Sequence record: NC_106721.1
Direction: 5' to 3' (one strand)
Origin: Escherichia phage EC148
Length of the DNA: 64,000 nt
Position numbers and translations under genes: made by a program. Shown piece by piece: positions 28,571 through 40,493 of this stretch (position 1 is the stretch's first letter; each line of letters starts with the position of its first letter). Below the pieces are notes generated by a model. It saw only the letters and a program-made list of their open reading frames with translations. It did not search any database and was not told the DNA's origin.

Positions 28571-28646
28571 TGGTAGTTAGTAGTGGATTTGAACCACTGT
28601 AGTCGCTCCGTATGAAGGAGGTGCATAACCACTCTGCCAACTAACT
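28571..28646 (-). tRNA. tRNA, anticodon CAU (Met or Ile-lysidine)
   Basis: 76 nt; paired acceptor ends, T-arm GGATTTGAACC, anticodon loop TTCATAC, encoded CCA. Confidence 0.6.
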
Positions 28647-28813
28647 AGTTAATTCTTTATAGGTTAGATCTAGAAGATCTTTCTTACTGATAAGTCCTTC
28701 TCTATATTGGTCAATAAACATATCTATTCTAGAGTTCTCTGAGACTTCTATATCAGAAAGTTCAGCAAATATTTTTGCAAGTTTATCAATATCTTCCATA
28801 CATAACCTTAATT

Positions 28814-28890
28814 TGGTACTCCGGGAGGGATTTAAACCCCCGGTCTCTCGGTTATCAGCCGAGTGCTTTAGCTCGCTAAGCTACCGAAGC
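28814..28890 (-). tRNA. tRNA-Ile (GAU)
   Basis: 77 nt cloverleaf by hand; anticodon loop CTGATAA; encoded CCA. Confidence 0.6.
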
Positions 28891-28891
28891 A

Positions 28892-29119
28892 TTAACATTT
28901 TGCAGCAGAACGTTTGCCATTTCTAGGTGCACCTGGAAGTCGTGCACGTTCTGCCATTCTTCGCTTAATCTTTGAGATATTTTCTAGTGTTTGTTCTTCA
29001 GGCTTAATACCTGAAACACTACACCACTGATTACCATCCCATGCGGTAATGATCATAACACCATTACTCATGATCTTTTCTGTAAAAGTAATCCTCATTA
29101 TAGCAACTCGTCTAAGCAA
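28892..29119 (-). CDS. hypothetical protein
   Basis: 75 aa ORF between tRNAs. Confidence 0.3.
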   Translation of the reverse strand: MLRRVAIMRITFTEKIMSNGVMIITAWDGNQWCSVSGIKPEEQTLENISKIKRRMAERARLPGAPRNGKRSAAKC

Positions 29120-29391
29120 GAGGTATATTTAAGTTTACCATCTTTATCTACTTTGATTTCGACTTCCGCTCGTGGTACTTGACGAACTACACCATGAATC
29201 ATCTTATAGCGAATGCCTTTAGCTGGTTCATGCTCTTTTGGAAATACTTGCTTAACCGTTACTACCTTAAAACCCTCACGCGGTGTTAACACTACTACTT
29301 GATCACCTTCTTTGATCTTCCAAGAGCCAGGAAATTCATAGGTATAGCGTTGACCACCAGTTTGGAACACAACAGAAAGATAACGTTTCAT
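29098..29391 (-). CDS. hypothetical protein
   Basis: 97 aa ORF directly downstream of a conserved promoter/leader. Confidence 0.45.
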   Translation of the reverse strand: MKRYLSVVFQTGGQRYTYEFPGSWKIKEGDQVVVLTPREGFKVVTVKQVFPKEHEPAKGIRYKMIHGVVRQVPRAEVEIKVDKDGKLKYTSCLDELL

Positions 29392-29421
29392 TTGGCTTCC
29401 CTCTCATTAATTTATATAAAT

Positions 29422-29450
29422 ATTATAACAATAAATAAGAGAGAAAGCAA
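29422..29450 (-). promoter_or_regulatory. early promoter, TTGCTT-17-TATAAT
   Basis: conserved cassette; leader ...AATTAATGAGAGGGAAGCCAAATG. Confidence 0.6.
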
Positions 29451-29640
29451 ATGAATTTTTAATAAAGTTTAGTCACTTCATAAACTATACTACGAGATTC
29501 TTTATTACGTTCTATTAAATTAGAATATGCTTTTTCAGCTTCATTTTTAGTATTAAAGTCTATAACGTGGGAGGTATTCGCTCTATTTGATTGACTATAC
29601 CAGATAACTACTAATAATTTAAACATAATAGTCCTTAAGT

Positions 29641-29727
29641 TGGTGCTGGGCACAGGATTCGAACCTGTAACGGGATTACTCCTCCTGATTACAAATCAGG
29701 TGCATTCAACCATTCTGCCAACCCAGC
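29641..29727 (-). tRNA. type II tRNA (long variable arm), anticodon loop TTTGTAA (reads as UGU), identity unresolved
   Basis: 87 nt; Ser/Leu-like body (3 bp D-stem, 15 nt variable arm) but anticodon not Ser/Leu/Tyr. Confidence 0.45.
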
Positions 29728-29892
29728 AGAACCCGTTATTTCAACGGGATTTCTTTTTCAATAACAGGAGACTTATCAGTCATAACCGCCATTGCCATTT
29801 GTTGTAGAAATTCAAAGGTGAAGGCTACACGTTCTTCACCAATCTCTACTTCTACACGTTTCTTTTGTTTATCGATCTTGACTTTTAGGTTA

Positions 29893-30144
29893 TCAGCCAT
29901 TAGAGAGTACAGTACTGGTAGTTGGCAATACTACAGATGAAGCAACAGTGTTTAAATGCTTTCTCCAGTCTAGGTTAAATTGTTTTCGAAACTCTTCATA
30001 AGGTTCTTCTGGATAAAAGCTAAAACCTCCTTTCTCATCATTCAGGATAACAGAGCCGTCAGTTTGTTCGTATGCTCGGTATGTTTCTCCAATAACAATA
30101 ACTCGTTTTTCGGTACTTTTATTACGAAACTCAAAAACGTGCAT
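29893..30144 (-). CDS. hypothetical protein
   Basis: 83 aa ORF. Confidence 0.4.
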   Translation of the reverse strand: MHVFEFRNKSTEKRVIVIGETYRAYEQTDGSVILNDEKGGFSFYPEEPYEEFRKQFNLDWRKHLNTVASSVVLPTTSTVLSNG

Positions 30145-30160
30145 AATGTTTCCTTAAAGT

Positions 30161-30236
30161 TGGAGCGGCTAGAGGGAATCGAACCCTACTCAGCGAGGCT
30201 TGGAAGGCCTGCGGCACAACCCGTGTGCTTAACCGC
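30161..30236 (-). tRNA. tRNA-Gly (UCC)
   Basis: 76 nt; anticodon loop CTTCCAA; T-arm GGGAATCGAACCC. Confidence 0.6.
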
Positions 30237-30244
30237 TTATTGTT

Positions 30245-30320
30245 TGGCTGGAGAAGGAGGAATCGAACCTACCATTAACGGAGTCAAAGGCCGTTGTGCT
30301 AACCGTTACACTACTCTCCA
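30245..30320 (-). tRNA. tRNA-Gln (UUG)
   Basis: 76 nt; anticodon loop CTTTGAC. Confidence 0.55.
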
Positions 30321-30326
30321 ATTATT

Positions 30327-30402
30327 TGGCTGGGATGCCACGGATCGAACGTGGAACCTTCGGAGTCAGAGGCCGACGATCTGCCAATTGATCTACATCC
30401 CA
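30327..30402 (-). tRNA. tRNA-Gln (CUG)
   Basis: 76 nt; anticodon loop CTCTGAC. Confidence 0.55.
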
Positions 30403-30414
30403 ATAATTTTTATT

Positions 30415-30609
30415 CTACGGAAAAATTGTTGTTGGCTCAGATTCTTCCAAACGTTTGCCTTCATGATCAACACGAATAACGCCGCATCCTTCGCAAATCA
30501 CAACTGCACCATAACCTTCTTTGACCTCAGCTTCTGTAATCAAACCAGAAAGATCACCAGTATCTTTACCCCACATATCAATGGAGCATTGTTTGCAGAA
30601 ATCAGCCAT
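30415..30609 (-). CDS. small Cys-rich protein
   Basis: 64 aa; CxxC ... CxxC. Confidence 0.35.
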   Translation of the reverse strand: MADFCKQCSIDMWGKDTGDLSGLITEAEVKEGYGAVVICEGCGVIRVDHEGKRLEESEPTTIFP

Positions 30610-30632
30610 ATTTTATTTCCTATTTAAGTTAA

Positions 30633-30709
30633 TTTGGGGTGGCTAGTGGAATTCGAATCCACATAGGCCTGATTCACAATCAGGATCATTAACCAATTAT
30701 GATATAGCC
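30633..30709 (-). tRNA. tRNA-His (GUG)
   Basis: 77 nt (extra 5' G typical of His); anticodon loop TTGTGAA. Confidence 0.65.
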
Positions 30710-31077
30710 ACAATTGAAAACTCGCAGGGTTAGCGAAACCTTCCTCAATTAGCATGTTCTAGAATACTAATCAAGTTATCTCCTATTGCACGCAGCTCAA
30801 GACGAGTACGAATTTTCAATTGTGGCGGCTCTCAGAAACTCTTCTACTCTAGTCTTAGCAGCTTACTCCCGAACGCATGTCGGGGAAGTCTTACTAAGCG
30901 CATCAAATAGCACCGTTACACTTTGAGCCATTGGTGTATCAAGAAGCAGAAGGACTTGAACCTTCACGAGATAGACCATTTATCTCAGCCGCTTTATGAG
31001 GTATGTTGCAGGGAGTGGATGTTCCCTATAAACCTTTTAGGCAGCCCCGTCTACCGATTCCGGCATACTTCAGGATT

Positions 31078-31172
31078 TGGAGGTAGGTAAGGGGATCGAA
31101 CCCTTACACCGTATCACTACGATCAACCGATTTCAAGTCGGAGTCCAGCGCCAGCCATTGGATTGACCTACC
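31078..31172 (-). tRNA. tRNA-Ser (UGA), type II
   Basis: 95 nt; anticodon loop CTTGAAA; long variable arm. Confidence 0.5.
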
Positions 31173-31184
31173 ATATAAATTGTT

Positions 31185-31275
31185 TGGCGGAAGAGGAGAG
31201 ATTTGAACTCTCAAGCCGTTTTACCAGTCAGCCACTTTCCAAGCGGTTTTCGTCACCAATTCGATTTGCTCTTCC
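31185..31275 (-). tRNA. type II tRNA-like, anticodon unresolved
   Basis: 91 nt; perfect acceptor pairing and T-arm GAGAG-TTCAAAT-CTCTC but no canonical anticodon arm found by hand. Confidence 0.35.
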
Positions 31276-31311
31276 AATAACAAGATGATGCCTCTATCAC
31301 ACCAGGCAGTT

Positions 31312-31387
31312 ACGCCTCGCTGGGATTCGAACCCATTAAAACAGCTCAACCGAGATAGTAGGTTTAATTTACTCTGACCATCAAATT
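31312..31387 (-). tRNA. tRNA-like element, non-canonical
   Basis: T-arm GGGATTCGAACCC present but acceptor stem cannot be paired. Confidence 0.2.
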
Positions 31388-31464
31388 TGGTGCGTGACAA
31401 GGGATTCGAACCCTCAAAACCCGACTTCTAAGGACGGTATGTATGCCAATTCCATCAATCACGC
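31388..31464 (-). tRNA. tRNA, anticodon loop CTTAGAA (UAG, Leu by anticodon) on a class I body
   Basis: 77 nt; acceptor and T-arm clean; anticodon stem has one mismatch. Confidence 0.4.
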
Positions 31465-31469
31465 GTATT

Positions 31470-31548
31470 TGGTGGAGAATAACGGAATCGAACCGTTCTG
31501 ATGTCCTCGGTGCAAGCGAGGTGTCCACTCCATGCAGACCCATTCCCC
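31470..31548 (-). tRNA. tRNA-Ala (UGC)
   Basis: 79 nt; anticodon stem CCTCG/CGAGG, loop CTTGCAC. Confidence 0.55.
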
Positions 31549-31567
31549 AAATTATTTAGTTTACTAA

Positions 31568-31741
31568 GGCTATTAGCTCGGCGTAACTACAGCACCTTCG
31601 CTTCGAGCGGAAGGAACCGCGTCATCTCGCAAACCCGATACACTATTCAGTTGCCACTGAATCTAGTGGACTAATCTAGAACTTCTCCCGAATCGTAGGG
31701 ATCGTGCTTTTTGGCAGCCAGTCCTAGGTCGAGCTAATACC
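31568..31741 (-). ncRNA. structured RNA candidate closed by a 12 bp long-range stem
   Basis: GGCTATTAGCTCG at 31568 pairs with CGAGCTAATACC at 31730; internal GC-rich hairpins; no ORF; directly downstream of promoter 31787-31815. Confidence 0.3.
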
Positions 31742-31786
31742 TTAGTGAACTATGATGAGGATTTCTCCTCATCAATTTATATAAAT

Positions 31787-31815
31787 ATTATAACAAGAAA
31801 TTAAGCATTAAGCAA
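31787..31815 (-). promoter_or_regulatory. early promoter, TTGCTT-17-TATAAT, feeding the tRNA/structured-RNA unit
   Basis: conserved cassette; leader contains palindrome GATGAGGAGAAATCCTCATC. Confidence 0.55.
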
Positions 31816-31833
31816 CTGCGTTTTTCTTGAAAT

Positions 31834-31912
31834 TGGTAGATCGCCTGGGACTCGAACCCAGAACCTTCCGATTAAAAGTCGGATGCTACTAAACCTATTG
31901 AGCTAGCGATCT
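31834..31912 (-). tRNA. tRNA-Lys (UUU)
   Basis: 79 nt; anticodon stem TCCGA/TCGGA, loop CTTTTAA. Confidence 0.6.
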
Positions 31913-32101
31913 ATTAGTAACCATTATACACTTCTTTAATAGAGTGGACTTTTAAGTAAGGGTGATTAGTACTAAACTCTACCATTACTTCATCCCAATT
32001 TTTACCATAATGAGCGAGTAAGGATTTTGATGTATTCTTACCTAACCGTTTGTCACTTACTACTAATCGAAATACTTTCATTTCGAAATCCTCTATTAAA
32101 A

Positions 32102-32179
32102 TGGAAGCGGGTGCAGGAATCGAACCTACCTCTTTCTAGCTTATGAGACTAGCGATCTCTACCAGAGATCTAACCCGCA
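32102..32179 (-). tRNA. tRNA, anticodon CAU (Met or Ile-lysidine)
   Basis: 78 nt; D-stem GATC/GATC, anticodon loop CTCATAA. Confidence 0.6.
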
Positions 32180-32185
32180 ATTGTT

Positions 32186-32261
32186 TGGTCAGTGCGGCAG
32201 GACTCGAACCTGCGACCCGAAGCATCCAAGGCTCCCACGCTACCAACTGCGCTACGCACTG
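32186..32261 (-). tRNA. tRNA-Pro (UGG)
   Basis: 76 nt; anticodon loop CTTGGAT; T-arm GCAGG-TTCGAGT-CCTGC. Confidence 0.6.
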
Positions 32262-32270
32262 TTAATTCTT

Positions 32271-32468
32271 TTATTGTGGAGGAATATTAATAATTCGTCC
32301 GTCTACACAATAAACGGTACTAGGAATTGTACTATATATGTAGAAATTCTTTATATTACTCTCTCCGCCACAGAAATTTTTAGCAAATTCATACTCTTTA
32401 TTAATGGTTGAGTCAAGTTTAAAACAACCAGTAAGTAGGAATACAGACAGCAGTAAAACTTTTTTCAT
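32271..32468 (-). CDS. small lipoprotein
   Basis: 65 aa; signal peptide with lipobox LLTGC; own promoter upstream. Confidence 0.5.
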   Translation of the reverse strand: MKKVLLLSVFLLTGCFKLDSTINKEYEFAKNFCGGESNIKNFYIYSTIPSTVYCVDGRIINIPPQ

Positions 32469-32500
32469 TTTGCTTTCCTTCTCAACACTTTATAAGGTAT

Positions 32501-32529
32501 ATTATACAGAGAATTAAGCATAATAGCAA
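32501..32529 (-). promoter_or_regulatory. early promoter, TTGCTA-17-TATAAT
   Basis: conserved cassette upstream of the lipoprotein gene. Confidence 0.55.
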
Positions 32530-32679
32530 ATGAATTTTTAATAAATTTACTTATTGTGTAGGCCACCTGGAGGCTACCAACCCCACGGCTGACAAAGAAG
32601 TTTGCGAGACCTCTCTTAAGTGCCAGAATAGACCCGCCGATCTATCGGAACCTACATAATAAGTAAACTTTATAGTGTC

Positions 32680-32799
32680 ATTCTAGACAGGACTCGAACC
32701 TGTTATCACTTGTGCGGACTTACGAGAACCATTCTTTCACTCGAATCGAACGAGCTTCTGCCCTCGCCAAGCTGGTTTCCCCATCAACCACGCTAGAAT
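32680..32799 (-). tRNA. atypical 120 nt tRNA-like element (two T-arm-like hairpins)
   Basis: terminal 7 bp acceptor-like pairing ATTCTAG/CTAGAAT, T-arm ACAGG-TTCGAGT-CCTGT plus internal CTCG-TTCGATT-CGAG. Confidence 0.25.
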
Positions 32800-32810
32800 G
32801 TTTGATTGTT

Positions 32811-32915
32811 TTCAGTGCAAGAGTCCGAGTCTTGGACACGACCGCTTCGCAAGTACATAGGCAGCTTATCATGAGTCAGCACTTCCGAATTGCTAGCTCC
32901 GTGTTCTGCACTGAA
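32811..32915 (-). ncRNA. structured RNA candidate closed by TCAGTGCA/TGCACTGA
   Basis: 8 bp long-range inverted repeat enclosing about 85 nt of GC-richer sequence; overlapping plus-strand ORF looks spurious. Confidence 0.25.
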
Positions 32916-32921
32916 ATTTTA

Positions 32922-33269
32922 TTAGTTTAACCGTAAAGTATTATCTACTTCACCATTAATTGTTCGGCATTCTTCTGGGATTGCTGGTGTAGCCTTATAT
33001 TCCCACCATTCAGAACCGTCGTATTCACCACGTTCTAACCAAGTTCCATCAGTAAACCACACGTTACCATAAAGCAATTGCCCACCGAAACCAGAATCAT
33101 ATTTAAAGTCTAGATTATTTAGAAAATCTTCAATATCTTTTTCTGTATAACCTACGGGTAACACCCAAACTTCTTTGTCCCCATAATAACCGAATTCTAT
33201 CTTAATACACTTAACTTCAGAATTAATATTCTTTAAGGCAAGTAACAATTCTTCTTTAGCATTAATCAT
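32922..33269 (-). CDS. hypothetical protein
   Basis: 115 aa ORF. Confidence 0.45.
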   Translation of the reverse strand: MINAKEELLLALKNINSEVKCIKIEFGYYGDKEVWVLPVGYTEKDIEDFLNNLDFKYDSGFGGQLLYGNVWFTDGTWLERGEYDGSEWWEYKATPAIPEECRTINGEVDNTLRLN

Positions 33270-33295
33270 AGCATATTTCTCGTACTAGTTTAATT

Positions 33296-33372
33296 TGGCG
33301 CGACCGATGGGATTTGAACCCACATTCCCTCCCGTGACAGGGGAGTACCATTACCAAGCCAGCCCCGGTCGC
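33296..33372 (-). tRNA. tRNA-Asp (GUC)
   Basis: 77 nt; anticodon stem CTCCC/GGGAG, loop CTGTCAC. Confidence 0.65.
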
Positions 33373-33381
33373 ATAATTCAT

Positions 33382-33567
33382 TTACTCAGCTTTGAGTTTT
33401 TCAATAGCTGCATTAAGTTCTTTAAGAAACTTTTTTCGTACATTAAGACGGTTGAGACTTACTAGTATATCATGTTTAAGTTCTTCGATGTATTTCTTCT
33501 CAACTTCAATATTGTTGATAGTGCTATCACGATGAACTTCTAGCTGTGCAATTACATTCTTGGACAT
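33382..33567 (-). CDS. hypothetical coiled-coil protein
   Basis: 61 aa ORF. Confidence 0.3.
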   Translation of the reverse strand: MSKNVIAQLEVHRDSTINNIEVEKKYIEELKHDILVSLNRLNVRKKFLKELNAAIEKLKAE

Positions 33568-33669
33568 GCTTGTTTCCTCAGTTATTAATGAAAATGGTAT
33601 CTGTGACTGAATTCGATGTCAGCAATGATAGCTGGTTGGCTACCGGTTTACTTAACTCTACACAGAATT

Positions 33670-33752
33670 TGGCGGGCCGTGTAGGATTCGAACCTACGTT
33701 GTCTTTCGACATGGATTAACAGTCCACCGCCAAACCGCTTGGCTAACGACCC
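33670..33752 (-). tRNA. tRNA-Asn (GUU)
   Basis: 83 nt; anticodon loop CTGTTAA; unusually long (13 nt) variable region. Confidence 0.45.
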
Positions 33753-33904
33753 TAAATTTATATTGCTGACTAGGATTTTCACCTAGACGGAGTTAGCACC
33801 GTAGCGTGTAGCGGCATACCTCTCCAAACCGTGCCTCATCTTTCAATTACGGAGACAGTGTTCCTACGCGTGCCTGAATTGATTTAACAACTCTTTCAGC
33901 AAAT

Positions 33905-33980
33905 TGGACGACCGCATGAGATTTGAACTCACATAAAAAGGATTTGCAATCCTTCGCCTAAGCCATTCAGCCAACGGTCG
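33905..33980 (-). tRNA. tRNA-Cys (GCA)
   Basis: 76 nt; anticodon stem AAGGA/TCCTT, loop TTGCAAA. Confidence 0.6.
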
Positions 33981-34028
33981 ATTTATCTTGTTCTGTCATG
34001 TTGCTTCTCCAGTTCAATTTATGTAATT

Positions 34029-34337: not shown

Positions 34338-34339
34338 TT

Positions 34340-34420: not shown

Positions 34421-34497
34421 TGGCAAACCTACTAGGACTCGAACCTAGACCGTACGGTTTTGGAGACCGACATGCTGTCCAGTAACACTCTAGGAAT
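34421..34497 (-). tRNA. tRNA-Trp (CCA)
   Basis: 77 nt; anticodon loop CTCCAAA; two acceptor mismatches. Confidence 0.45.
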
Positions 34498-34505: not shown

Positions 34506-34582
34506 TGGCGTCCTGTGCGGGGATCGAACCCACAAATCCTACCTTGAAAGGGTAGTGACTTTACCAGTTTGTCTAACAGGAC
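34506..34582 (-). tRNA. tRNA-Glu (UUC)
   Basis: 77 nt; anticodon stem CTACC/GGTAG, loop CTTTCAA. Confidence 0.6.
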
Positions 34583-34589
34583 TTAAATT

Positions 34590-34680
34590 TGGTGTTGGAT
34601 GATGGAGTCGAACCACCCGAGACCCTTCCGAGTCGGCAGATTTACAGTCTGCTTCGCTACCTCTACGATACTAATCCAAC
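34590..34680 (-). tRNA. tRNA-Tyr (GUA), type II
   Basis: 91 nt; anticodon stem GCAGA/TCTGC, loop CTGTAAA; long variable arm. Confidence 0.6.
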
Positions 34681-34800: not shown

Positions 34801-34808
34801 TGTATTAG

Positions 34809-35084
34809 TTAGTCGAACTTAGGAGCGACAGTTAAGGAGAATGGAAGTTCGAAAACTTCTTCGCCCTCATCACTAACAGTAATTACACGACCTTTAAGTT
34901 CAGACATTGAAATATCAATATCAGCTTTTGCATCTGGAGCCATGCCAGCTTCAATACATTTAGCTTTAACTTCCGGCAGAAGTTCTACATCGTAGAAATA
35001 AAGCCATTCAATCTCACCTTCCCAGCCTTCTCAGGATTTACAGATTGCACTTTCAATACCAGTTGCTATAACACGATTTTGCAT
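34809..35084 (-). CDS. early ORF interrupted by an in-frame TGA at codon 18
   Basis: promoter and conserved leader abut the ATG at 35084; 17 codons, then TGA (35031-35033), then 73 in-frame sense codons to TAA at 34809. Confidence 0.35.
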
Positions 35085-35114
35085 TCGTTAACTCCTTCAT
35101 CAATTTATATAACT

Positions 35115-35144
35115 ATTATACCAGAAATTTAAAGCAAAAGGCAA
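35115..35144 (-). promoter_or_regulatory. early promoter, TTGCCT-18-TATAAT
   Basis: conserved cassette with variant -35. Confidence 0.5.
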
Positions 35145-35174
35145 GTACATTTTTAAAAATTCTGTTTGGAGGAG

Positions 35175-35381
35175 CTAAACTCCAGATTCTTCAGCTAAGT
35201 CTAGGCTAATAAGAGATATAGCCATAATTGCTGCTCCGTGTTCTCTTTCTCCTGTCTCTTTAGCTAGGGTTATAATATCAAGAAATTGCTTATGAAAGTC
35301 TGCAACCTCTTGAGTCATACCTGCCTCAGCAATCATGCCTTTAAGCATGAAACGTTGTGCGGTAATTTCGGGATTAGCCAT
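35175..35381 (-). CDS. hypothetical protein
   Basis: 68 aa ORF. Confidence 0.4.
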   Translation of the reverse strand: MANPEITAQRFMLKGMIAEAGMTQEVADFHKQFLDIITLAKETGEREHGAAIMAISLISLDLAEESGV

Positions 35382-35556
35382 GTTGTTTCTCCAGTTTCAT
35401 GTTTAATAGTCTACAAATAAAATCAATGTCTTCATCTGTGCCTAGATCTCTATCTTCAAGAGTTGCCTTGAAGTTTTTCGTCAATTCCATGAGGATAACT
35501 TCTCTAGAACGACGTGTTGGCGGAGGTGGATGTCTATACATCTTATTTCCTTAAGT

Positions 35557-35633
35557 TGGTAGGGGTGGTGGGATTCGAACCCACAAAACCTGAATTTTAA
35601 GTCCAGTACCTATACCAATTCGATTACACCCCC
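35557..35633 (-). tRNA. tRNA, anticodon loop CTTAAAA (UAA, Leu by anticodon) on a class I body
   Basis: 77 nt; acceptor GGGGGTG, T-arm GTGGG-TTCGAAT-CCCAC; 5 nt variable loop. Confidence 0.4.
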
Positions 35634-35734
35634 ATGTAATCAGTTTATTAGTTGATACATATTATAGCCTAGTGAAAATCCTACTACTAGTCCCACAAAC
35701 CAACCAATATAATAATCTTTTAGTTTCACAGGTA

Positions 35735-35920
35735 TTATCCTCGTTCAATATCTAGGGAAACACCGCAGTTAGGATTAATACCTGTACCGTTGCAATTTGA
35801 ACAAATCCAGATATTGCAAAAAGTATCTCCTGCTTCTGCATCAGAACTTTCACCAATTCCCCTACACTCAGGGCAGGCACATTCTTCTAGCTCTTGCTTG
35901 AGTTCTTGAAACTTGGACAT
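35735..35920 (-). CDS. small Cys-rich protein
   Basis: 61 aa; CACPEC ... CSNCNG. Confidence 0.4.
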   Translation of the reverse strand: MSKFQELKQELEECACPECRGIGESSDAEAGDTFCNIWICSNCNGTGINPNCGVSLDIERG

Positions 35921-35929
35921 ATAGTCTCC

Positions 35930-36118
35930 TTAGTCAATTACTTTTGAGGCTTCAAGGGAGTCGATATAGTATACGTTTTCTACCATAATCATATAATCTG
36001 CCACTTTATCCATAGCTTGGGCCTCAGAGGTAGCTCTGGCTAACCTATATCCTTTTTTATATTCATCCGGGTATTCTCTATCTTGAATAAATACAACATA
36101 AACTATGTATAATTCCAC
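35930..36118 (-). CDS. hypothetical protein
   Basis: ORF track 35930..36265 runs into tRNA genes; start moved to a GTG with AGGGG RBS near 36118. Confidence 0.3.
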   Translation of the reverse strand: MELYIVYVVFIQDREYPDEYKKGYRLARATSEAQAMDKVADYMIMVENVYYIDSLEASKVID

Positions 36119-36138
36119 TTGTAATCCCCTAATTAAGT

Positions 36139-36216
36139 TGGTGGCTCCCCGAGGATTCGAACCTACGTACCTTCCGGTTATGAGCCGGGTGCTCATACCA
36201 TATGAGCTTGAGAACC
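36139..36216 (-). tRNA. tRNA, anticodon CAU (Met/fMet or Ile-lysidine)
   Basis: 78 nt; anticodon loop CTCATAA; third CAU tRNA in the cluster. Confidence 0.5.
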
Positions 36217-36222
36217 AGAATT

Positions 36223-36311
36223 TGGCGGAAGAAGTGGGAATCGAACCCACAAGGCTATATTTCAAACCGACAGATTAGCAATCTGCTGCAATACCGTTAT
36301 GCTATTCTTCC
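36223..36311 (-). tRNA. tRNA-Ser (GCU), type II
   Basis: 89 nt; anticodon loop TTGCTAA; long variable arm. Confidence 0.55.
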
Positions 36312-36332
36312 GAATTTATAAGATATATTATA

Positions 36333-36851
36333 TTAGAAATTTAGCTTCATAGCAAGAAAATTTTTCAAGTTTTCGGTAGACATCTCATCCACATCTACGG
36401 GAGAAACAAAGCCGTTTAATTTTCTAGCAAATTTTTCACCCGCAGGATCGTTGTCTCCGACAGCTACCAATTTAAAAGGTAATAATTTCAGTTGCTTTAA
36501 TAACGCTTTTCCTGGAGAAGAACCTAACATTGCCAGGGCTGGATAACCAGCGTTATGTAGCGCAACTGCCTTAAATACAGATTCAGCGATCAATACTACT
36601 TTTTCATCTCCATTGAGAGTTTCTAGTCCCCATACACACTGGGTAGTAGAATAAGTAAAATATTTAGCTTCAAAGGGACACTTACCATGACCTTTTGGAG
36701 CAGAAGGATTATACGTCTGATAGCCTCGCAACATCCCGGAGAAGTCATACAACGGGACTGTTAGCCATCCTTCCGGACTTAACCAGCAATGATATTTATC
36801 TGTATCAAATCCTCTGGATAAGAGGTGCTGTGTTAGCTCATCAACATTCAT
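36333..36851 (-). CDS. Toprim-like domain protein (putative)
   Basis: start taken at MNVDELT; C-terminal E ... VGDNDPAG resembles a Toprim acidic motif. Confidence 0.3.
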   Translation of the reverse strand: MNVDELTQHLLSRGFDTDKYHCWLSPEGWLTVPLYDFSGMLRGYQTYNPSAPKGHGKCPFEAKYFTYSTTQCVWGLETLNGDEKVVLIAESVFKAVALHNAGYPALAMLGSSPGKALLKQLKLLPFKLVAVGDNDPAGEKFARKLNGFVSPVDVDEMSTENLKNFLAMKLNF

Positions 36852-36881
36852 ATTTGGTTCCTCTCTCAAATTTATAGATAT

Positions 36882-36910
36882 ATTATACAGAGAATTTAGC
36901 ATTCAAGCAA
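36882..36910 (-). promoter_or_regulatory. early promoter, TTGCTT-17-TATAAT
   Basis: conserved cassette. Confidence 0.55.
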
Positions 36911-37026
36911 TCAAATTTTTTAACTTTTTAGAGGAAAATCATAGGGCACTTAAGGGTAGCAGATAAGTGGGGAGGACCAAAATTTGTGACCCCACTAAAA
37001 ATCCGGGGGCAATTTTTAAAGACCCC

Positions 37027-37055
37027 TTGACATTTTCGCTGGGGTAGTGTAAAGT
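37027..37055 (+). promoter_or_regulatory. plus-strand sigma70-type promoter (TTGACA-17-TAAAGT)
   Basis: consensus -35; differs from the TTGCTT-TATAAT early cassette; precedes the plus-strand three-gene cassette. Confidence 0.45.
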
Positions 37056-37117
37056 ATATGTTATGGATGAGTGATCAAAGAGACACACATTTTCTATATA
37101 CTAGGAGGTGTCAAAAT

Positions 37118-38107
37118 ATGACAGAAGAAGTAGCTAAGAGTCCTGAGACCGTCGCTAGCGTTGCAGCAGAACTGCACAGTCACGAGGAATCAGATAAGAA
37201 AAAGTGGGAGAAGGTCAGAGCCTACGAAGAAAAACATCGTGAACACGATGATGAAGAAGAAGATGACGATGATGAACATTGTCATAAATATGGAAAACAT
37301 AAAATGCAAGAACCAGTAAACGTATTCACTAGTGGCTTCCCTGGCCTACTGGGTGGTTACCCAGCAAACGCAGGTGCTTTCGGTGGTGAAGGTATGGGAC
37401 TATTCGGAGCTATCCTAATCGGTGCTCTATTAACCGGCGGATTCGGTGGTTTCGGTGGATTCGGTGGACGTGGTGTAGTTGGTGAAGGTACCGCAGTTGA
37501 TGCAGTACTTCAGAACCAAGATACCGCTAGTATTCTAGCAGCTATCAACACTACTCGTACAGAGGCTAACCAGGGTACTGGAGCTGTTTTAAGCGCAGTT
37601 AACAATGGTTTTAGCCAGACAACCCAAAACCAGAGCCGTGATACTCAGTCTGTACTAACTACGATCTACGGTACAGGTGCTAATCTGTCTAATCAGATCT
37701 GCCAGGAAACTCGCAACGTTATTCAGGGTCAGTTCGATCTTTCTCGCCAGATTGATCAATCTTTCGCAGCTAACCAGATAGCTCGTGCACAAGATAAGTT
37801 TGATTCTGCACAGATCGCTTTCCAGCAGACTTTACAAACTAATAACCAGTTTGCCGCTGTTCAGGCTCAGATGTGTGCTAACCAGAACTCTCTGGAACGT
37901 CAGATCGCTGAATGTTGCTGTGAACTTCAGACTGCGATCGCTGGTGTAACTACTGCGCGTATCCAGGATGAGTTAGACGCATGTCGCCTACGTGAAGCAA
38001 TCGCTGCGGGTAGCGGTGCTAACGGTCAGGTAATTAATCAAATCGCTTTAAGTCTTGGTGCTATCACTCAGACTCTGGCTGGTCTGCAGGCTAAACTGCC
38101 GGCTTAA
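37118..38107 (+). CDS. membrane-anchored Gly-zipper / Gln-Asn-rich protein
   Basis: start moved to ATG with AGGAGG RBS; acidic N-terminus, GLFGAILIGALLTGGFGGFGGFGG hydrophobic Gly-rich segment, then Q/N/T-rich repeats and a CCC motif. Confidence 0.55.
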   Translation: MTEEVAKSPETVASVAAELHSHEESDKKKWEKVRAYEEKHREHDDEEEDDDDEHCHKYGKHKMQEPVNVFTSGFPGLLGGYPANAGAFGGEGMGLFGAILIGALLTGGFGGFGGFGGRGVVGEGTAVDAVLQNQDTASILAAINTTRTEANQGTGAVLSAVNNGFSQTTQNQSRDTQSVLTTIYGTGANLSNQICQETRNVIQGQFDLSRQIDQSFAANQIARAQDKFDSAQIAFQQTLQTNNQFAAVQAQMCANQNSLERQIAECCCELQTAIAGVTTARIQDELDACRLREAIAAGSGANGQVINQIALSLGAITQTLAGLQAKLPA

Positions 38108-38128
38108 TATTAAGGGGAGGAGCCCATT

Positions 38129-38545
38129 ATGAGTAAATATGGTTTTGTAAATAACGGACTTAATCAAAGTATGGGCTCCCAGCAGCCCATTCCGGGTCTG
38201 GATAACCCCTACTTACAACAGTTGCAACAGCGTTTAGCAGAAGCGCAACAGATGCAGCAACAACTCCAGCAAAACCCTGGAAGTGTGAGTCCTATGCAAA
38301 TGATGCAGCAAATGAGCGGGCAGTCGCAAATGCCTCAACAAATGCAGCAACAGGTGCCTCAGCAGCAAGTTCAGCAACAAACCCAACAACCGCAGGTTTC
38401 TGCGGAAGGACAGGCAGTACTAGCCCTTTTCGAAGACTTCGCAAAGACAGAGGATGGGAAACAGCTTGTATCACTTATGGGTAAGTTTAATAGCTTCTGC
38501 CAAAGCCAAGTTGCAAAAGCTCAAAATGGGGGTAGTAACTCCTAA
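38129..38545 (+). CDS. Gln-rich low-complexity protein
   Basis: 138 aa; GGGGAGG RBS; poly-Q/M tracts. Confidence 0.5.
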   Translation: MSKYGFVNNGLNQSMGSQQPIPGLDNPYLQQLQQRLAEAQQMQQQLQQNPGSVSPMQMMQQMSGQSQMPQQMQQQVPQQQVQQQTQQPQVSAEGQAVLALFEDFAKTEDGKQLVSLMGKFNSFCQSQVAKAQNGGSNS

Positions 38546-38554
38546 GGAGGAAAT

Positions 38555-38749
38555 ATGTGTTGCAGAAAATCTGTTTCGTGCTGCCCAGTGCCTGTAGCAC
38601 GTTGTTGCTCTCCAGCAATGTTTACGCAAATACCGGCGTTCAATCCCTTTGCCTTTAAGCCTACTCTTATCCTGCCCCCTAGAGTAGATTTTCAGTCAAG
38701 ATTGGCCTCCCGTATGGGTGGTTGCTGTACACCGAGAGTATGGTTCTAA
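38555..38749 (+). CDS. Cys-rich peptide with four CC doublets
   Basis: 64 aa; AAGGAGG RBS; MCCRKSVSCCPVPVARCCSP ... GGCCTPRVWF. Confidence 0.45.
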   Translation: MCCRKSVSCCPVPVARCCSPAMFTQIPAFNPFAFKPTLILPPRVDFQSRLASRMGGCCTPRVWF

Positions 38750-38757
38750 ACCAAAAA

Positions 38758-38796
38758 CAAAAGCCCCTGCCGAAAGGTAAGGGGCTTTTTCTTTTG
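38758..38796 (+). terminator. rho-independent terminator
   Basis: stem AGCCCCT/AGGGGCT followed by TTTTTCTTTT. Confidence 0.65.
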
Positions 38797-38804
38797 CCTT
38801 AAAT

Positions 38805-38842
38805 ACAGAAAAGCCCGCGCTCTCGTAGGAAACGCGGGCTTG
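38805..38842 (-). terminator. rho-independent terminator
   Basis: stem AGCCCGCG/CGCGGGCT with U-tract on the minus strand after the SPFH gene stop. Confidence 0.6.
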
Positions 38843-38864
38843 GTTCGAAGATTACGTGTAACTA

Positions 38865-39812
38865 TTACTTGTTACGCATATCCATGATCATTTGACCATC
38901 GTAGCCAGTACCTACCACAGTCTGAGGTACACCACCTTGATACTTCTGAGCACGGATCATTTCAACTTCCAGTTGTTTCCAACGAATCATTTCAGGAGTA
39001 ATGGTACGTTGCAATGCGGCGTTAGCTTCAGCTTCTTTCTTAGCTGCGTACAGTTTAGCATCTGCGTCACGTTCATTAGCAATAGCTTGGTTGTTACGAG
39101 CTTCACGATCTGCTTCTGCTTGTTTAACTTTTTGCTGTGCTTCCTGTTCAACGCGAGCAAGTTCAGCTTTCGCAGCATTAACTTGCTCTTCACGAACTTT
39201 GGTATTCTGTACCTGTTCCATGATTACTGGCGGCAAGGTAATATCCTGAAGGAATACCTGCTTAACTGTGTAACCATATGGGCGCGCATACTCTTCAACT
39301 TCCTGTTGAATTGCAGTTTGCAATTGAGCCTGAATTTTAGCATCAAATAAATCTTGTGCTTTAGGTACAGACTTACCAAACTCACGAATAGTAGACAGTA
39401 ATTTTTCAGTTACATACTTGTCTAGTGCCTGATCCTGAGTACCTGCGTTAATACGGTTAATCGGTGCTTTAGAACCATCAAACTGCAACATAACAGTCAG
39501 GTCAACAGTGGATTTAAACTTATCCTGGCTAGGAACCTGAAGTTTATCTAATTTTACAGCAATATCTTTTGTACTAAAAGTATCGAAAGATGCAAACGGG
39601 TTTACAAGATGGAAGCCCGGCAATACTGGATTAGGGTCTACTTTACCCAGGAATGTTTGGGTTTTAACCGTACCATCAGAAACAATAGTATATGAATTAA
39701 AAGCTAGGATTAAACCTGCTAAACCAACTACAGCACCAATACCCCAACGTTTAATAGTACGAATTACTTTCTGCTCAGAAGTCAGTTCTTTCATATTTTT
39801 AGTAGCAAACAT
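38865..39812 (-). CDS. SPFH/band-7 (prohibitin/HflKC-like) membrane protein
   Basis: 315 aa; N-terminal TM helix, SPFH-like core, Ala/Glu/Gln coiled coil, prohibitin-like C-terminus. Confidence 0.55.
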   Translation of the reverse strand: MFATKNMKELTSEQKVIRTIKRWGIGAVVGLAGLILAFNSYTIVSDGTVKTQTFLGKVDPNPVLPGFHLVNPFASFDTFSTKDIAVKLDKLQVPSQDKFKSTVDLTVMLQFDGSKAPINRINAGTQDQALDKYVTEKLLSTIREFGKSVPKAQDLFDAKIQAQLQTAIQQEVEEYARPYGYTVKQVFLQDITLPPVIMEQVQNTKVREEQVNAAKAELARVEQEAQQKVKQAEADREARNNQAIANERDADAKLYAAKKEAEANAALQRTITPEMIRWKQLEVEMIRAQKYQGGVPQTVVGTGYDGQMIMDMRNK

Positions 39813-39846
39813 ATATTTCCTTTGTTTTAGTTACAGTTAATAAAAT

Positions 39847-39921
39847 TGGCCGAGGTGACAGGATTCGAACCTGCATAAAGGAATTTAGAAGACTCCTGCC
39901 TCTCCCTTAGACTACACCCCG
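39847..39921 (-). tRNA. tRNA-Arg (UCU)
   Basis: 75 nt; anticodon loop CTTCTAA; T-arm ACAGG-TTCGAAT-CCTGC. Confidence 0.5.
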
Positions 39922-40423
39922 TTTAAGTATTTTTAAGAACTCTCGTAAAAACTCTTAAAAATACAGACGATACCGGGAGAGTCATAAGTCTCACTCATTA
40001 AGTATTTCAAGACAAAATACAGTAACGTCTATTATTTTCCAGTTTAAGTCAGGGTGACTTAGTGGTTATGTCCTGCGGTATATTGAGGACTCGGTTAGGC
40101 TTGGGGTCATGACTTCCCACCTTTTGCTGCTACTCAACAGGAGTTATCGCGAATTACCTGTGCTATTGTGCACCATTAGTGACATCTCTCATGTCAGCAT
40201 TTCCCACTTTGTGGATAGCTTGAAAAACTACTCCGATATGGAGAAAGAACTTCACTATCCTAGAATACCTTCTAAAGTTCTTCTTTAGCCTGGACATAGT
40301 TAAATCGTAATAAAACTATTCAGCAGACTGGTTGGTTAGTCTGGAACCAACTACCGCGTGGTTTAGGCAGTGCGCAACTAACCTCGGAAGCTTTTATGTT
40401 AAAAGCATCAGTTATCCAGTTCT

Positions 40424-40493
40424 TACCGACCGTAGGATTCGAACCTACATCTTCCACCAGTTACGGCTTGATAATACCAATTATACTAGGACG
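40424..40493 (-). tRNA. tRNA-like element, anticodon unresolved
   Basis: T-arm GTAGG-ATTCGAA-CCTAC and plausible acceptor pairing; internal arms not resolved. Confidence 0.25.

What the first reader, a model, noticed from the sequence alone, without database searches (positions are those of the whole stretch)
28571..40493. tRNA cluster contains several non-canonical tRNA-like elements alongside about 22 standard tRNAs
Hand folding gives clean tRNAs for Ile, Gly, Gln (x2), His, Ser (x2), Ala, Lys, Pro, Asp, Asn, Cys, Glu, Tyr, Trp, Arg and three CAU tRNAs. Several elements do not fit: a Ser/Leu-type class II body whose anticodon loop reads UGU (29641-29727); two class I bodies carrying Leu anticodons UAG and UAA (31388-31464, 35557-35633); a 91 nt element with a good acceptor and T-arm but no foldable anticodon arm (31185-31275); a 120 nt element with two T-arm-like hairpins (32680-32799); and T-arm-only fragments (30940-30965, 31312-31387). 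Mismatched body and anticodon could mean non-standard decoding, tRNA decoys or mimics against host anticodon nucleases, or processing intermediates. No Val, Thr or class II Leu tRNA was identified, so some odd elements may simply be these, misfolded by me.
Basis: partly seen in the sequence, partly recalled or inferred. Interest (0 to 1): 0.6.

Follow-up and report, generated by a model that had tools for sequence, protein, structure and literature searches.

The report
T5-type phage tRNA gene cluster
This is the long-known tRNA gene block of a T5-like coliphage (25 tRNA genes plus T5's catalogued 'stable RNAs'); the odd-looking members are real but mostly ordinary, and the few tRNAs with an extra or missing arm still carry the signals for normal charging.

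Summary
The window is a T5-like Tequintavirus, 99.9% identical to phage T5_ev212. On the minus strand, 28571-40551 holds 25 tRNA genes that all encode CCA. They cover 19 amino acids; Val is absent.

- The 120-nt double-T-arm element is RNA2.
- The 30940-30965 fragment is the T arm of RNA1.
- RNAIII, RNAI, RNA2H, RNAIV, RNA3 and RNAX are also present.

The 91-nt element is a weak but foldable tRNA-Ser(GGA).

Four tRNAs do have non-textbook architecture. Thr(UGU) and Asn(GUU) carry a short variable arm. Leu(UAG) and Leu(UAA) lack one. All four keep the identity elements of their cognate synthetases. Three of the four replace canonical alleles at the same slot in sister phages (the fourth, Leu(UAA), has no counterpart in T5), and the Thr and Leu types belong to large families. 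I found 76 distinct viral V-armed Thr(UGU) sequences, with a covarying arm, and 113 chromosomal copies in Eremiobacterota, Kiritimatiellia and Cytophagales. I also found at least 167 distinct viral armless Leu tRNAs.

Non-standard decoding is therefore unlikely. A decoy role is untested. The cluster is already known. Only the arm-swapped architecture seems undescribed in the literature I could search.

The parts
28571..28646 (-). tRNA-Met(CAU), elongator; equals T5 T5t01
   Evidence: ARAGORN; Rfam 51.5 bits; 100% identical to the T5 gene
28814..28890 (-). tRNA-Ile(GAU)
29641..29727 (-). tRNA-Thr(UGU), 87 nt, class II-like: 3-bp D stem, 11-nt D loop, variable arm GGA-GUAA-UCC, A73, CCA
   Evidence: The MFE fold gives a five-arm cloverleaf, z = -2.25. 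The arm covaries in a 35-sequence alignment. T5 has a 75-nt class I allele at the same slot.
30161..30236 (-). tRNA-Gly(UCC), irregular D-arm junction
   Evidence: Found by ARAGORN only at ps95; 98.7% identical to T5 T5t04
30245..30320 (-). tRNA-Gln(UUG)
30327..30402 (-). tRNA-Gln(CUG)
30635..30711 (-). tRNA-His(GUG); base -1 (30712) is U
30713..30818 (-). T5 stable RNA III
   Evidence: 99.1% identical to T5 rnaIII; fold z = -2.92; 98-100% conserved in 21 loci
30823..30929 (-). T5 stable RNA I: terminal helix GGCUC/GAGCC followed by GCCA
   Evidence: 91.6% identical to T5 rnaI
30930..31073 (-). T5 RNA1, a tRNA-like stable RNA. It has an acceptor stem, a Leu-type D arm, a 6-bp variable arm and a T arm (30949-30965). 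About 40 nt of hairpin is inserted in the anticodon arm, and no CCA is encoded.
   Evidence: Eight of 38 pairs show compensatory changes and almost none are broken. ARAGORN -i calls it an intron-containing tRNA but with inconsistent anticodons.
31078..31172 (-). tRNA-Ser(UGA), 95 nt, 4-nt acceptor/D connector
   Evidence: ARAGORN ps95; Rfam tRNA-Sec model 37.6 bits, below gathering score
31185..31275 (-). tRNA-Ser(GGA), 91 nt, G73, CCA; a weak scorer
   Evidence: ARAGORN only at ps85; anticodon-stem pair covaries as G.U / A-U / G-C in 21 loci; positional homologue of T5 tRNASer2(GGA)
31276..31387 (-). 112-nt conserved spacer with one T-arm-like hairpin (31322-31336); nature unresolved
   Evidence: 96-99% identical in 18 related loci, absent from T5, which has the hegC HNH gene there. 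Fold z = -0.11. No parent tRNA was identifiable.
31388..31464 (-). tRNA-Leu(UAG), 77 nt, no variable arm; Leu-type D arm GAAUUGGCAUA, variable loop GUUUU, A73
   Evidence: the T5 allele at this slot is 85 nt and class II; 511 phage records hold relatives
31470..31548 (-). tRNA-Ala(UGC), 79 nt, G3.U70, 7-nt variable loop
   Evidence: ARAGORN; not found by Rfam at E<=10
31568..31739 (-). T5 stable RNA 2H
   Evidence: 97.7% identical to T5 rna2H
31834..31912 (-). tRNA-Lys(UUU), 79 nt
32102..32179 (-). tRNA-fMet(CAU), initiator per the T5 annotation
   Evidence: 100% identical to T5 T5t14
32186..32261 (-). tRNA-Pro(UGG)
32555..32657 (-). T5 stable RNA IV
   Evidence: 97.1% identical to T5 rnaIV
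32676..32800 (-). It has an 8-bp terminal helix, a D-like arm and two T-arm-like hairpins (32739-32755 and 32687-32703). Its 3' end is ACA.
   Evidence: 96.8% identical to T5 rna2; present in 477 phage records; fold
33296..33372 (-). tRNA-Asp(GUC)
33595..33667 (-). T5 RNA3, a degenerate tRNA-like RNA ending in ACCA
   Evidence: 98.6% identical to T5 rna3; fold z = -2.90
33670..33752 (-). tRNA-Asn(GUU), 83 nt, variable arm GUC-GAAA-GAC, G73
   Evidence: the T5 allele is 78 nt and class I
33905..33980 (-). tRNA-Cys(GCA)
34421..34497 (-). tRNA-Trp(CCA), with two U.U pairs in the acceptor stem
34506..34582 (-). tRNA-Glu(UUC)
34590..34680 (-). tRNA-Tyr(GUA), 91 nt, ordinary class II
35557..35633 (-). 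tRNA-Leu(UAA), 77 nt, no variable arm; D loop GAAUUGGUAUA, variable loop GUUUU, A73
   Evidence: absent from T5, which has the hegA HNH gene there; present in 18 related loci
36139..36216 (-). tRNA-Ile2(CAU) per the T5 annotation
   Evidence: 97.4% identical to T5 T5t23; Rfam 40.3 bits; an anticodon-stem pair shows a compensatory change
36223..36311 (-). tRNA-Ser(GCU), 89 nt
39847..39921 (-). tRNA-Arg(UCU)
39922..40551 (-). T5 RNAX region, holding a tRNA-like pseudo-element at 40424-40495 with no CCA and a poor anticodon arm
   Evidence: 91-98% identical to T5 rnaX; Rfam tRNA 35.5 bits; ARAGORN 'Ser(act)' only at ps95; conserved in 23 loci; fold z = +0.18

Best explanation
The region is the tRNA gene block of a T5-like phage. 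Early transcripts carry 25 CCA-encoding tRNA genes interleaved with small ORFs and eight structured 'stable RNAs'. Each stable RNA has paired 5' and 3' ends, so host tRNA-processing enzymes can cut them out; this step is inferred.

The tRNAs add to the host pool for codons this AT-rich phage uses heavily (CUA, UUA, ACA, AGA). For T5 tRNA-Lys and tRNA-Tyr, published work shows they also replace host tRNAs destroyed by defence nucleases.

The four architecturally odd tRNAs are normal decoders. Thr(UGU) and Asn(GUU) have a short hairpin variable arm. Leu(UAG) and Leu(UAA) have none. Each keeps the elements its cognate E. coli synthetase reads, so it should be charged according to its anticodon. 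The sequence features are shown here; the charging is inferred.

The remaining odd elements (RNA1, RNA2, RNA3, the RNAX pseudo-tRNA, the 112-nt spacer) are tRNA-derived RNAs, not decoding tRNAs. At least RNA1 is kept by selection on its structure. Their function is unknown.
For: Identity of the region:
- 99.9% identity to T5_ev212 over 13 kb.
- T5 reference features map one-to-one onto the window.

Thr(UGU):
- It has G1-C72, C2-G71 and anticodon U34 G35 U36. These are the kinds of elements the tRNA identity review PMC9976931 lists for ThrRS.
- All 76 distinct viral homologues keep G1-C72 and C2-G71.
- All three arm pairs change on both sides. The covariation score is 0.803 against 0.198 in shuffles, with 0 of 500 shuffles as high.
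- 113 chromosomal copies occur in bacterial genomes, often beside Tyr(GUA), Gly(UCC) and Thr(GGU).

Leu:
- Both genes have A73, the D loop G13 A14 A15 U16 U17 G18 G19 N A20a, and U48.
- PMC9976931 states that E. coli LeuRS needs A73, A15-U48, G18G19 and A20a but not the long variable arm.
- Of 167 distinct viral armless Leu tRNAs, 166 have A73 and 166 have U48.

Asn:
- It has GUU plus G73 (identity rule).

Allelic replacement:
- The same slots hold 75-nt or 87-nt Thr, 77-nt or 83-87-nt Leu(UAG), and 78-nt or 83-nt Asn, in every combination among 21 T5-like loci.

Codon use:
- CUA 16.4, UUA 19.4 and ACA 11.4 per thousand codons.

RNA1:
- Eight compensatory pairs and almost no broken pairs.
- Present in 491 phage records.

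Defence role of T5 tRNAs:
- PMC11464382.
Against: - No aminoacylation or expression data exist for these particular alleles; charging is inferred from E. coli identity rules.
- Four of the 25 genes (Gly, Ser UGA, Ser GGA, Ala) fall below Rfam's tRNA threshold, so some may work poorly.
- T5 GenBank notes say several T5 tRNAs could not be turned into amber suppressors.
- The T5-type Thr has A73 and a Ser/Tyr-like D arm, so weak mischarging by another class II-reading synthetase is not formally excluded.
- The RNA1 covariation comes from only two or three clades, so independent events are few.
- The function of every stable RNA remains unknown.
Confidence: 0.8

Rival explanations
1. Non-standard decoding. 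The class II-like UGU tRNA is charged by SerRS or LeuRS, or the armless UAG/UAA tRNAs are charged with something other than Leu, so the phage deliberately recodes ACA, CUA or UUA.
For: The UGU tRNA has a Ser/Tyr-type D arm (3-bp stem, loop GAAUGGUUGAA) and a variable arm. SerRS and LeuRS ignore the anticodon. Nematode nev-tRNAs are a precedent (PMC3333845).
Against: - The arm has only 3 bp. The acceptor is C2-G71 where bacterial tRNA-Ser keeps G2-C71, and the discriminator is A or U, not G.
- Most family members have U73, which excludes LeuRS.
- The same architecture occurs as a chromosomal Thr(UGU) gene in many MAGs of several bacterial phyla.
- Sister phages with near-identical proteins carry the canonical allele instead.
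- CUA is 16 per thousand codons, so misreading would be costly.
- The armless Leu tRNAs lack G3.U70 and lack a V arm, so AlaRS and SerRS are excluded.
Confidence: 0.04
2. Counter-defence. The arm gain or loss makes the phage tRNAs invisible to host tRNases or tRNA-modifying toxins that read tRNA shape, and the tRNA-like stable RNAs act as decoys for such enzymes.
For: T5 tRNA-Lys resists PARIS AriB, and T5 tRNA-Tyr counters PtuAB (PMC11464382). Schlafen-type nucleases target T5 and host tRNAs (PMC13056530). Human SLFN11 prefers type II tRNAs, according to a reference title seen. Armless Leu and V-armed Thr, Asn, Ile, Lys and Cys recur across unrelated phages. RNA1 is under structural selection and has an invariant 10-nt loop.
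Against: - No bacterial nuclease known to me reads the Leu variable arm.
- V-armed Thr(UGU) is also chromosomal in free-living bacteria, so the arm need not be an anti-defence device.
- Canonical and variant alleles coexist in phages of the same hosts.
- Nothing here links any stable RNA to a defence system.
Confidence: 0.15
3. The tRNA-like elements (RNA2, RNA3, the RNAX pseudo-tRNA, the 112-nt spacer) are decaying tRNA pseudogenes. They survive only as processing spacers or as leftovers of cassette exchange driven by homing endonucleases.
For: - The RNAX element and the spacer fold no better than shuffles (z = +0.18 and -0.11).
- RNA3 has a degenerate D arm.
- ARAGORN calls for RNA1 give inconsistent anticodons.
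- T5 carries the HNH genes hegA, hegC and hegD at the variable sites.
Against: These elements are 94-100% conserved across more than 20 loci, at least as well as the real tRNAs. RNA1 shows compensatory changes. RNA1 and RNA2 persist in about 480-490 genomes across several Demerecviridae genera.
Confidence: 0.2

Closest known systems
Bacteriophage T5 tRNA gene region (NC_005859 / AY543070): 25 tRNA genes plus stable RNAs III, I, 1, 2H, IV, 2, 3 and X
   Same: Same order and orientation. Thirteen tRNA genes are 96-100% identical, and all eight stable RNAs are present at 85-99% identity.
   Different: - Thr, Leu(UAG), Asn, Ala, Lys, Pro, Trp, Tyr, both Gln, Ser(UGA) and Ser(GGA) are replaced by divergent alleles.
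- Val is missing.
- Leu(UAA) is extra.
- The three HNH endonuclease genes are absent.
Phage T4 tRNA cluster with species 1 and species 2 stable RNAs (from my own knowledge; not checked here)
   Same: A phage tRNA operon that also yields small stable RNAs of unknown function, released by host tRNA processing.
   Different: No sequence relationship was tested. T4 has 8 tRNAs and 2 such RNAs, against 25 and 8 here.
Nematode nev-tRNAs (PMC3333845): class II tRNAs with anticodons that are neither Leu nor Ser
   Same: A variable arm on a tRNA whose anticodon belongs to a class I family.
   Different: nev-tRNAs keep a Leu body and, according to the paper's title and abstract, decode an alternative code for leucine. 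Here the acceptor and anticodon carry Thr or Asn identity elements and the arm is only 3 bp.
Animal mitochondrial tRNA-Leu, and minimal E. coli tRNA-Leu variants lacking the variable arm (PMC9976931)
   Same: Leucine tRNAs without a long variable arm that are still recognised through A73 and D/T-loop tertiary elements.
   Different: These are natural phage genes meant to work with a bacterial cytosolic LeuRS. They keep a full E. coli-type D arm.
Defence-evading T5 tRNAs: tRNA-Lys against PARIS, tRNA-Tyr against retron PtuAB (PMC11464382, PMC11555353)
   Same: Same gene cluster, and the same logic of phage tRNAs that differ from host tRNAs.
   Different: The published cases rest on anticodon stem-loop substitutions. 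No role has been shown for gain or loss of the variable arm.

Membership tests
Functional elongator tRNA gene | Cloverleaf with 7-bp acceptor, anticodon arm with a 7-nt loop and U33, T arm with a GTTCRA loop | tested here: met
   All 25 genes are folded by ARAGORN. Twenty-one reach the Rfam tRNA gathering score; Gly, Ser(UGA), Ser(GGA) and Ala do not.
Functional elongator tRNA gene | Mature, aminoacylated RNA present in infected cells | not testable with these tools
   Needs tRNA-seq or northern blots. There are only indirect T5 suppressor notes in GenBank, and those concern other alleles.
E. coli LeuRS substrate (the two 77-nt tRNAs) | Discriminator A73 | tested here: met
   Both genes have it, as do 166 of 167 viral relatives. 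Rule from PMC9976931.
E. coli LeuRS substrate (the two 77-nt tRNAs) | A15:U48 Levitt pair, G18G19 register and A20a in an 11-nt D loop | tested here: met
   D loops are GAAUUGGCAUA and GAAUUGGUAUA, and the variable loop is GUUUU. U48 is present in 166 of 167 relatives.
Class II tRNA (textbook bacterial Leu) | Variable region of 10 nt or more forming a stem-loop | tested here: not met
   Both Leu tRNAs have a 5-nt variable loop. T5 and seven other loci carry an 83-87-nt class II allele at the UAG slot.
ThrRS substrate (the 87-nt tRNA) | G1-C72, C2-G71 and anticodon G35 U36. The specific E. coli positions are from my memory; the review confirms only that acceptor pairs plus anticodon are read. 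| tested here: met
   The pairs are invariant in 76 viral sequences and in the 35-sequence alignment.
SerRS substrate (rival reading for the 87-nt tRNA) | Long variable arm, G2-C71 and G73 | tested here: not met
   The arm is 3 bp with a tetraloop, the acceptor is C2-G71, and the discriminator is A (U in 58 of 76 relatives). Rule.
Class II-like tRNA architecture (87-nt Thr, 83-nt Asn) | A base-paired variable arm maintained by covariation | tested here: met
   Thr: three of three arm pairs change on both sides and 87.6% of cells are paired. Loops are mostly GAAA, GUAA or UUCG. Asn: GUC-GAAA-GAC here, AGC-GAAA-GCU in L076; few sequences.
AsnRS substrate (83-nt tRNA) | Anticodon GUU plus G73 | tested here: met
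   rule from PMC9976931
T5 'stable RNAs' (RNA1, RNA2, RNA3, RNAI, RNAIII, RNAIV, RNA2H, RNAX) | Sequence homology and synteny with the annotated T5 features | tested here: met
   85-99% identity in the same order
T5 'stable RNAs' | Accumulation as discrete stable RNA species in infected cells | not testable with these tools
   Rests only on the depositors' T5 annotation.
Any Rfam family other than tRNA, for the stable RNAs | Score at or above the gathering threshold | tested here: not met
   Only tRNA hits at gathering score. Sub-threshold hits are scattered chance-level matches.

The most novel reading that the evidence does not exclude
Swapping the variable arm is a recurrent, adaptive phage strategy: losing it on Leu, gaining a tetraloop-capped mini-arm on Thr, Asn and, in other phages, Ile, Lys, Cys and Pro. 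It would change how host shape-reading tRNases, toxins or modification enzymes see the tRNA, without changing aminoacylation. In the same reading, the structurally conserved tRNA-scaffold RNAs (RNA1, RNA2) are decoys or regulators in that same conflict.
Probability: 0.15. Interest if true: 0.7.

Novelty: already known. Interest (0 to 1): 0.35.

Why it matters
For the finding as posed, little changes. The T5 tRNA block and its tRNA-like stable RNAs have been catalogued for decades, and the window is nearly identical to a deposited genome.

Two things are still worth recording.

1. The textbook rule that in bacteria only Leu, Ser and Tyr tRNAs carry a long variable arm is broken in both directions by large natural families.
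   - V-armed tRNA-Thr(UGU) occurs in phages and as a chromosomal gene in several bacterial phyla.
   - I found no description of either in seven literature searches. That matters for tRNA identity rules, for annotation pipelines and for orthogonal-tRNA design.
2. RNA1 is unannotated or mis-annotated in most genomes, variously as 'hypothetical protein', tRNA-Leu or tRNA-Phe. It is under clear structural selection across several Demerecviridae genera. That makes it a concrete target for the open question of what T5's stable RNAs do.

Tried and rejected
- BLAST of the 87-nt Thr and 77-nt Leu genes against 5,426 complete E. coli genomes gave no match. For such short queries this is uninformative beyond excluding near-identical host or prophage copies.
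- I searched for a target of RNA1's invariant loop. Its complement AGTGGATGTT is not enriched in the window: 4 hits against 4.3 expected.
- I searched for a parent tRNA of the 112-nt spacer and of RNA1, RNA2 and RNA3 among all T5-like tRNAs. Only generic T-arm matches appeared.
- Thermodynamic z-scores were not discriminating for the spacer, the RNAX pseudo-tRNA, RNA2 or RNAI.
- Rfam at E<=10 gave no credible family for any stable RNA.
- RNA2 is too conserved (96.8-100%) for a covariation test.
- Seven literature searches found no description of armless phage tRNA-Leu or V-armed tRNA-Thr. Most of the 1980s T5 tRNA papers are not in the searchable library.
- I considered a codon-by-codon comparison with T5 orthologues and dropped it as too weak a test of charging.

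Full report
**What the window is**

A 13-kb query covering the finding is 99.9% identical to Escherichia phage T5_ev212. It is 95-97% identical to many Tequintavirus genomes. The reference T5 record (NC_005859) annotates this region in detail. It lists 25 tRNA genes and eight 'stable RNAs': rnaIII, rnaI, rna1, rna2H, rnaIV, rna2, rna3 and rnaX. Three of these (rna1, rna2, rna3) are labelled tRNA-like or putative tRNA-like. BLAST of every T5 feature against the window maps them in the same order on the minus strand.

**Inventory**

- ARAGORN at default settings finds 21 tRNAs.
- Rfam at gathering score finds 22.
- Relaxed ARAGORN adds Gly(UCC), Ser(UGA) and the third CAU tRNA at ps95, and Ser(GGA) at ps85.
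- The union is 25 genes. All encode a 3' CCA. Together they cover every amino acid except Val.
- Rfam misses Ala(UGC), Gly, Ser(UGA) and Ser(GGA). Rfam does hit a CCA-less pseudo-tRNA inside RNAX, at 40424-40495.
- T5 and 13 other related loci carry a 74-nt Val(UAC) gene next to Lys. It is deleted in the window.

1. 29641-29727 is a high-scoring tRNA (60.3 bits) with anticodon UGU and a real fifth arm, GGA-GUAA-UCC. The unconstrained MFE fold gives the five-arm cloverleaf.
2. 31388-31464 and 35557-35633 are tRNAs with Leu anticodons UAG and UAA and a 5-nt variable loop.
3. 31185-31275 is the positional homologue of T5 tRNASer2(GGA).
   - It has a foldable anticodon arm, G73 and CCA.
   - One of its anticodon-stem pairs appears as G.U, A-U or G-C in different phages.
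4. 32680-32799 is T5 RNA2, at 96.8% identity.
5. 30940-30965 is the T arm of T5 RNA1.
6. 31312-31387 lies in a 112-nt spacer between Ser(GGA) and Leu(UAG).
   - The spacer is 96-99% conserved in 18 related loci.
   - T5 has the HNH gene hegC in its place.
   - Its only tRNA-like feature is one T-arm hairpin. I could not find a parent tRNA or a stable fold.
   - It stays unexplained.

**Is body and anticodon mismatched?**

The Thr(UGU) tRNA:
- It begins G1-C72, C2-G71 and has G35 U36. I recall these as the elements E. coli ThrRS reads. The identity review PMC9976931 confirms that ThrRS reads acceptor pairs plus anticodon.
- For SerRS it has the wrong 2-71 pair, the wrong discriminator and an arm of only 3 bp.

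The two Leu tRNAs:
- They have A73 and the exact E. coli tRNA-Leu D-loop layout, G13 A14 A15 U16 U17 G18 G19 N A20a, plus U48.
- The same review states that these elements, and not the long arm, define E. coli leucine identity. It also reports that arm-less variants stay active.
- They lack G3.U70 and lack a V arm, so AlaRS and SerRS, the other anticodon-blind enzymes, are excluded.

The Asn tRNA:
- It has GUU and G73, which are the AsnRS elements.

**Comparative evidence**

A protein-anchored scan fetched 33 related viral loci. Within the 21 near-complete T5-like tRNA regions, each of these slots holds either allele:
- Leu(UAG) is 77 nt or 83-87 nt.
- Thr is 75 nt or 87 nt.
- Asn is 78 nt or 83 nt.

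All combinations occur. Canonical and variant genes are therefore interchangeable in phages that share hosts and nearly identical proteins.

The variants are not confined to T5-like phages:
- The T4-like Aeromonas phage Ah1 has an 85-nt Thr(UGU) with arm CC-GAAA-GG and a 78-nt Leu(UAG).
- Phage BUCT-ZZ01 has an 86-nt Thr and 78-nt Leu(CAA) and Leu(UAA).

Armless Leu in viral contigs:
- It yielded 167 distinct parsed genes. Of these, 166 have A73 and 166 have U48.

V-armed Thr(UGU) in viral contigs:
- Together with the T5-like loci, Ah1 and BUCT-ZZ01, it gave 76 distinct sequences. All have G1-C72 and C2-G71. Arm stems are highly varied, and loops are mostly GAAA, GUAA or UUCG.
- On a gap-free 35-sequence alignment, all three arm pairs change on both sides. 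The covariation score is 0.803 against 0.198 in shuffles, with 0 of 500 shuffles as high. Versions with the partner slid by 1-3 columns collapse to about 0.1.

V-armed Thr(UGU) in bacterial genomes:
- A scan of one genome per bacterial species found 116 stretches with the same architecture.
- Most are in Eremiobacterota, Kiritimatiellia, Cytophagales, Lentisphaerae and Verrucomicrobia, several on megabase contigs.
- In the Eremiobacterota loci they often lie within a few kb of Tyr(GUA), Gly(UCC) and a normal 72-75-nt Thr(GGU).
- A V-armed Thr(UGU) therefore appears to be a housekeeping threonine tRNA in whole lineages. I did not check whether those genomes also hold a class I Thr(UGU) gene. 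I take the chromosomal copies as the strongest argument that the arm does not change identity.

**The tRNA-like RNAs**

- All eight T5 stable RNAs are present. All fold with paired 5' and 3' ends.
- RNA1 has an acceptor stem, a Leu-type D arm, a 6-bp variable arm and a T arm. Its anticodon arm carries a hairpin insertion of about 40 nt, and no CCA is encoded.
- ARAGORN's intron mode calls RNA1 a tRNA in six phages, but with different anticodons: Leu taa, Phe aaa and Val aac. Some GenBank records annotate it as tRNA-Leu(taa) or tRNA-Phe.
- In a 15-sequence alignment of RNA1, 8 of 38 pairs show compensatory double changes and almost none are broken.
- The apical loop AACAUCCACU is invariant from Tequintavirus to Klebsiella and Pectobacterium relatives, while its stem covaries.
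- RNA1 is therefore a selected structured RNA, not a decaying gene. Its function is unknown, and its loop complement is not enriched in the window.
- RNA2, RNA3 and the RNAX element are too conserved to test.
- None of the stable RNAs matches an Rfam family.

**Mechanism**

Shown here:
- gene content and structures;
- identity elements;
- allelic interchange;
- covariation;
- heavy phage use of CUA, UUA, ACA and AGA (the E. coli figures used for comparison are from my memory).

Taken from the literature:
- T5 tRNA-Lys neutralises PARIS, and T5 tRNA-Tyr counters PtuAB (PMC11464382).
- Schlafen nucleases cleave T5 and host tRNAs (PMC13056530).

Inferred:
- cognate charging of the four variant tRNAs;
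- excision of the stable RNAs by host tRNA-processing enzymes;
- any adaptive value of arm gain or loss.

**Verdict**

Its striking interpretation, recoding, is not supported, and the decoy idea is untested. The cluster and its tRNA-like RNAs are already known from T5. The arm-swapped tRNA families are, as far as my searches reach, undescribed. They are a modest but genuine addition.

Noticed in passing
L016 (IMGVR_UViG_2974654585), homologue of window 34421-34497: One T5-like phage carries the 77-nt Trp-body tRNA with anticodon CUA instead of CCA, a single C-to-T change. That makes it a natural amber-suppressor allele.
   Followed up: no
L049, L052, L058, L066, L078, L100, L111, L112 and others (IMG/VR contigs): At least 20 viral contigs carry 90-99-nt tRNA-Ile(UAU) genes with a long variable arm that holds a recurrent CCAGAUUAGCG or CUAGAUAAGG motif.
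   Followed up: no
L124, L043, L150, L062, L076 (IMG/VR contigs): Lys(UUU), Cys(GCA), Pro(UGG) and Asn(GUU) tRNAs with short variable arms, several capped by GNRA-type tetraloops, occur in unrelated phages.
   Followed up: no
L277-L392 (bacterial genome contigs): V-armed tRNA-Thr(UGU) of 82-91 nt is chromosomal in Eremiobacterota, Kiritimatiellia, Cytophagales, Lentisphaerae and Verrucomicrobia MAGs. The neighbouring Thr(GGU) is ordinary at 72-75 nt.
   Followed up: partly
window 31010-31025 (minus strand), inside RNA1: The apical loop AACAUCCACU of the RNA1 insertion hairpin is invariant across Tequintavirus, Sugarlandvirus and Hongcheonvirus, while the closing stem covaries (GGG/CCC, AGG/CCU, CAG/CUG). 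No target was found in the window.
   Followed up: partly
window 31276-31387, 35634-36138, 30327-30402 compared with L002: The T5 reference has HNH homing-endonuclease genes (hegC, hegA, hegD) at three variable sites. At those sites the window has the 112-nt spacer, Leu(UAA) plus two small ORFs, and an intact Gln(CUG). This suggests that endonuclease-driven cassette exchange shapes the tRNA repertoire.
   Followed up: no
window 30712: The base 5' of tRNA-His is U, not the G-1 that E. coli encodes opposite C73. The T5 annotation includes this extra base in the gene.
   Followed up: no
window 31078-31172 and 31185-31275: Both Ser tRNAs have a 4-nt connector (CAAU or CAAA) between acceptor and D stem instead of 2 nt. 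This is why they score better against Rfam's tRNA-Sec model than its tRNA model.
   Followed up: no
L014, tRNA-Glu: One T5-like phage has a 94-nt tRNA-Glu(UUC) containing a 19-nt internal tandem duplication that spans the 3' end of the anticodon stem, the variable loop and the 5' part of the T arm.
   Followed up: no
GenBank records JLBYU40 and JLBYU43, and many others: RNA1 is annotated inconsistently across deposited genomes: as tRNA-Leu(taa), as tRNA-Phe, as 'hypothetical protein', or not at all.
   Followed up: partly
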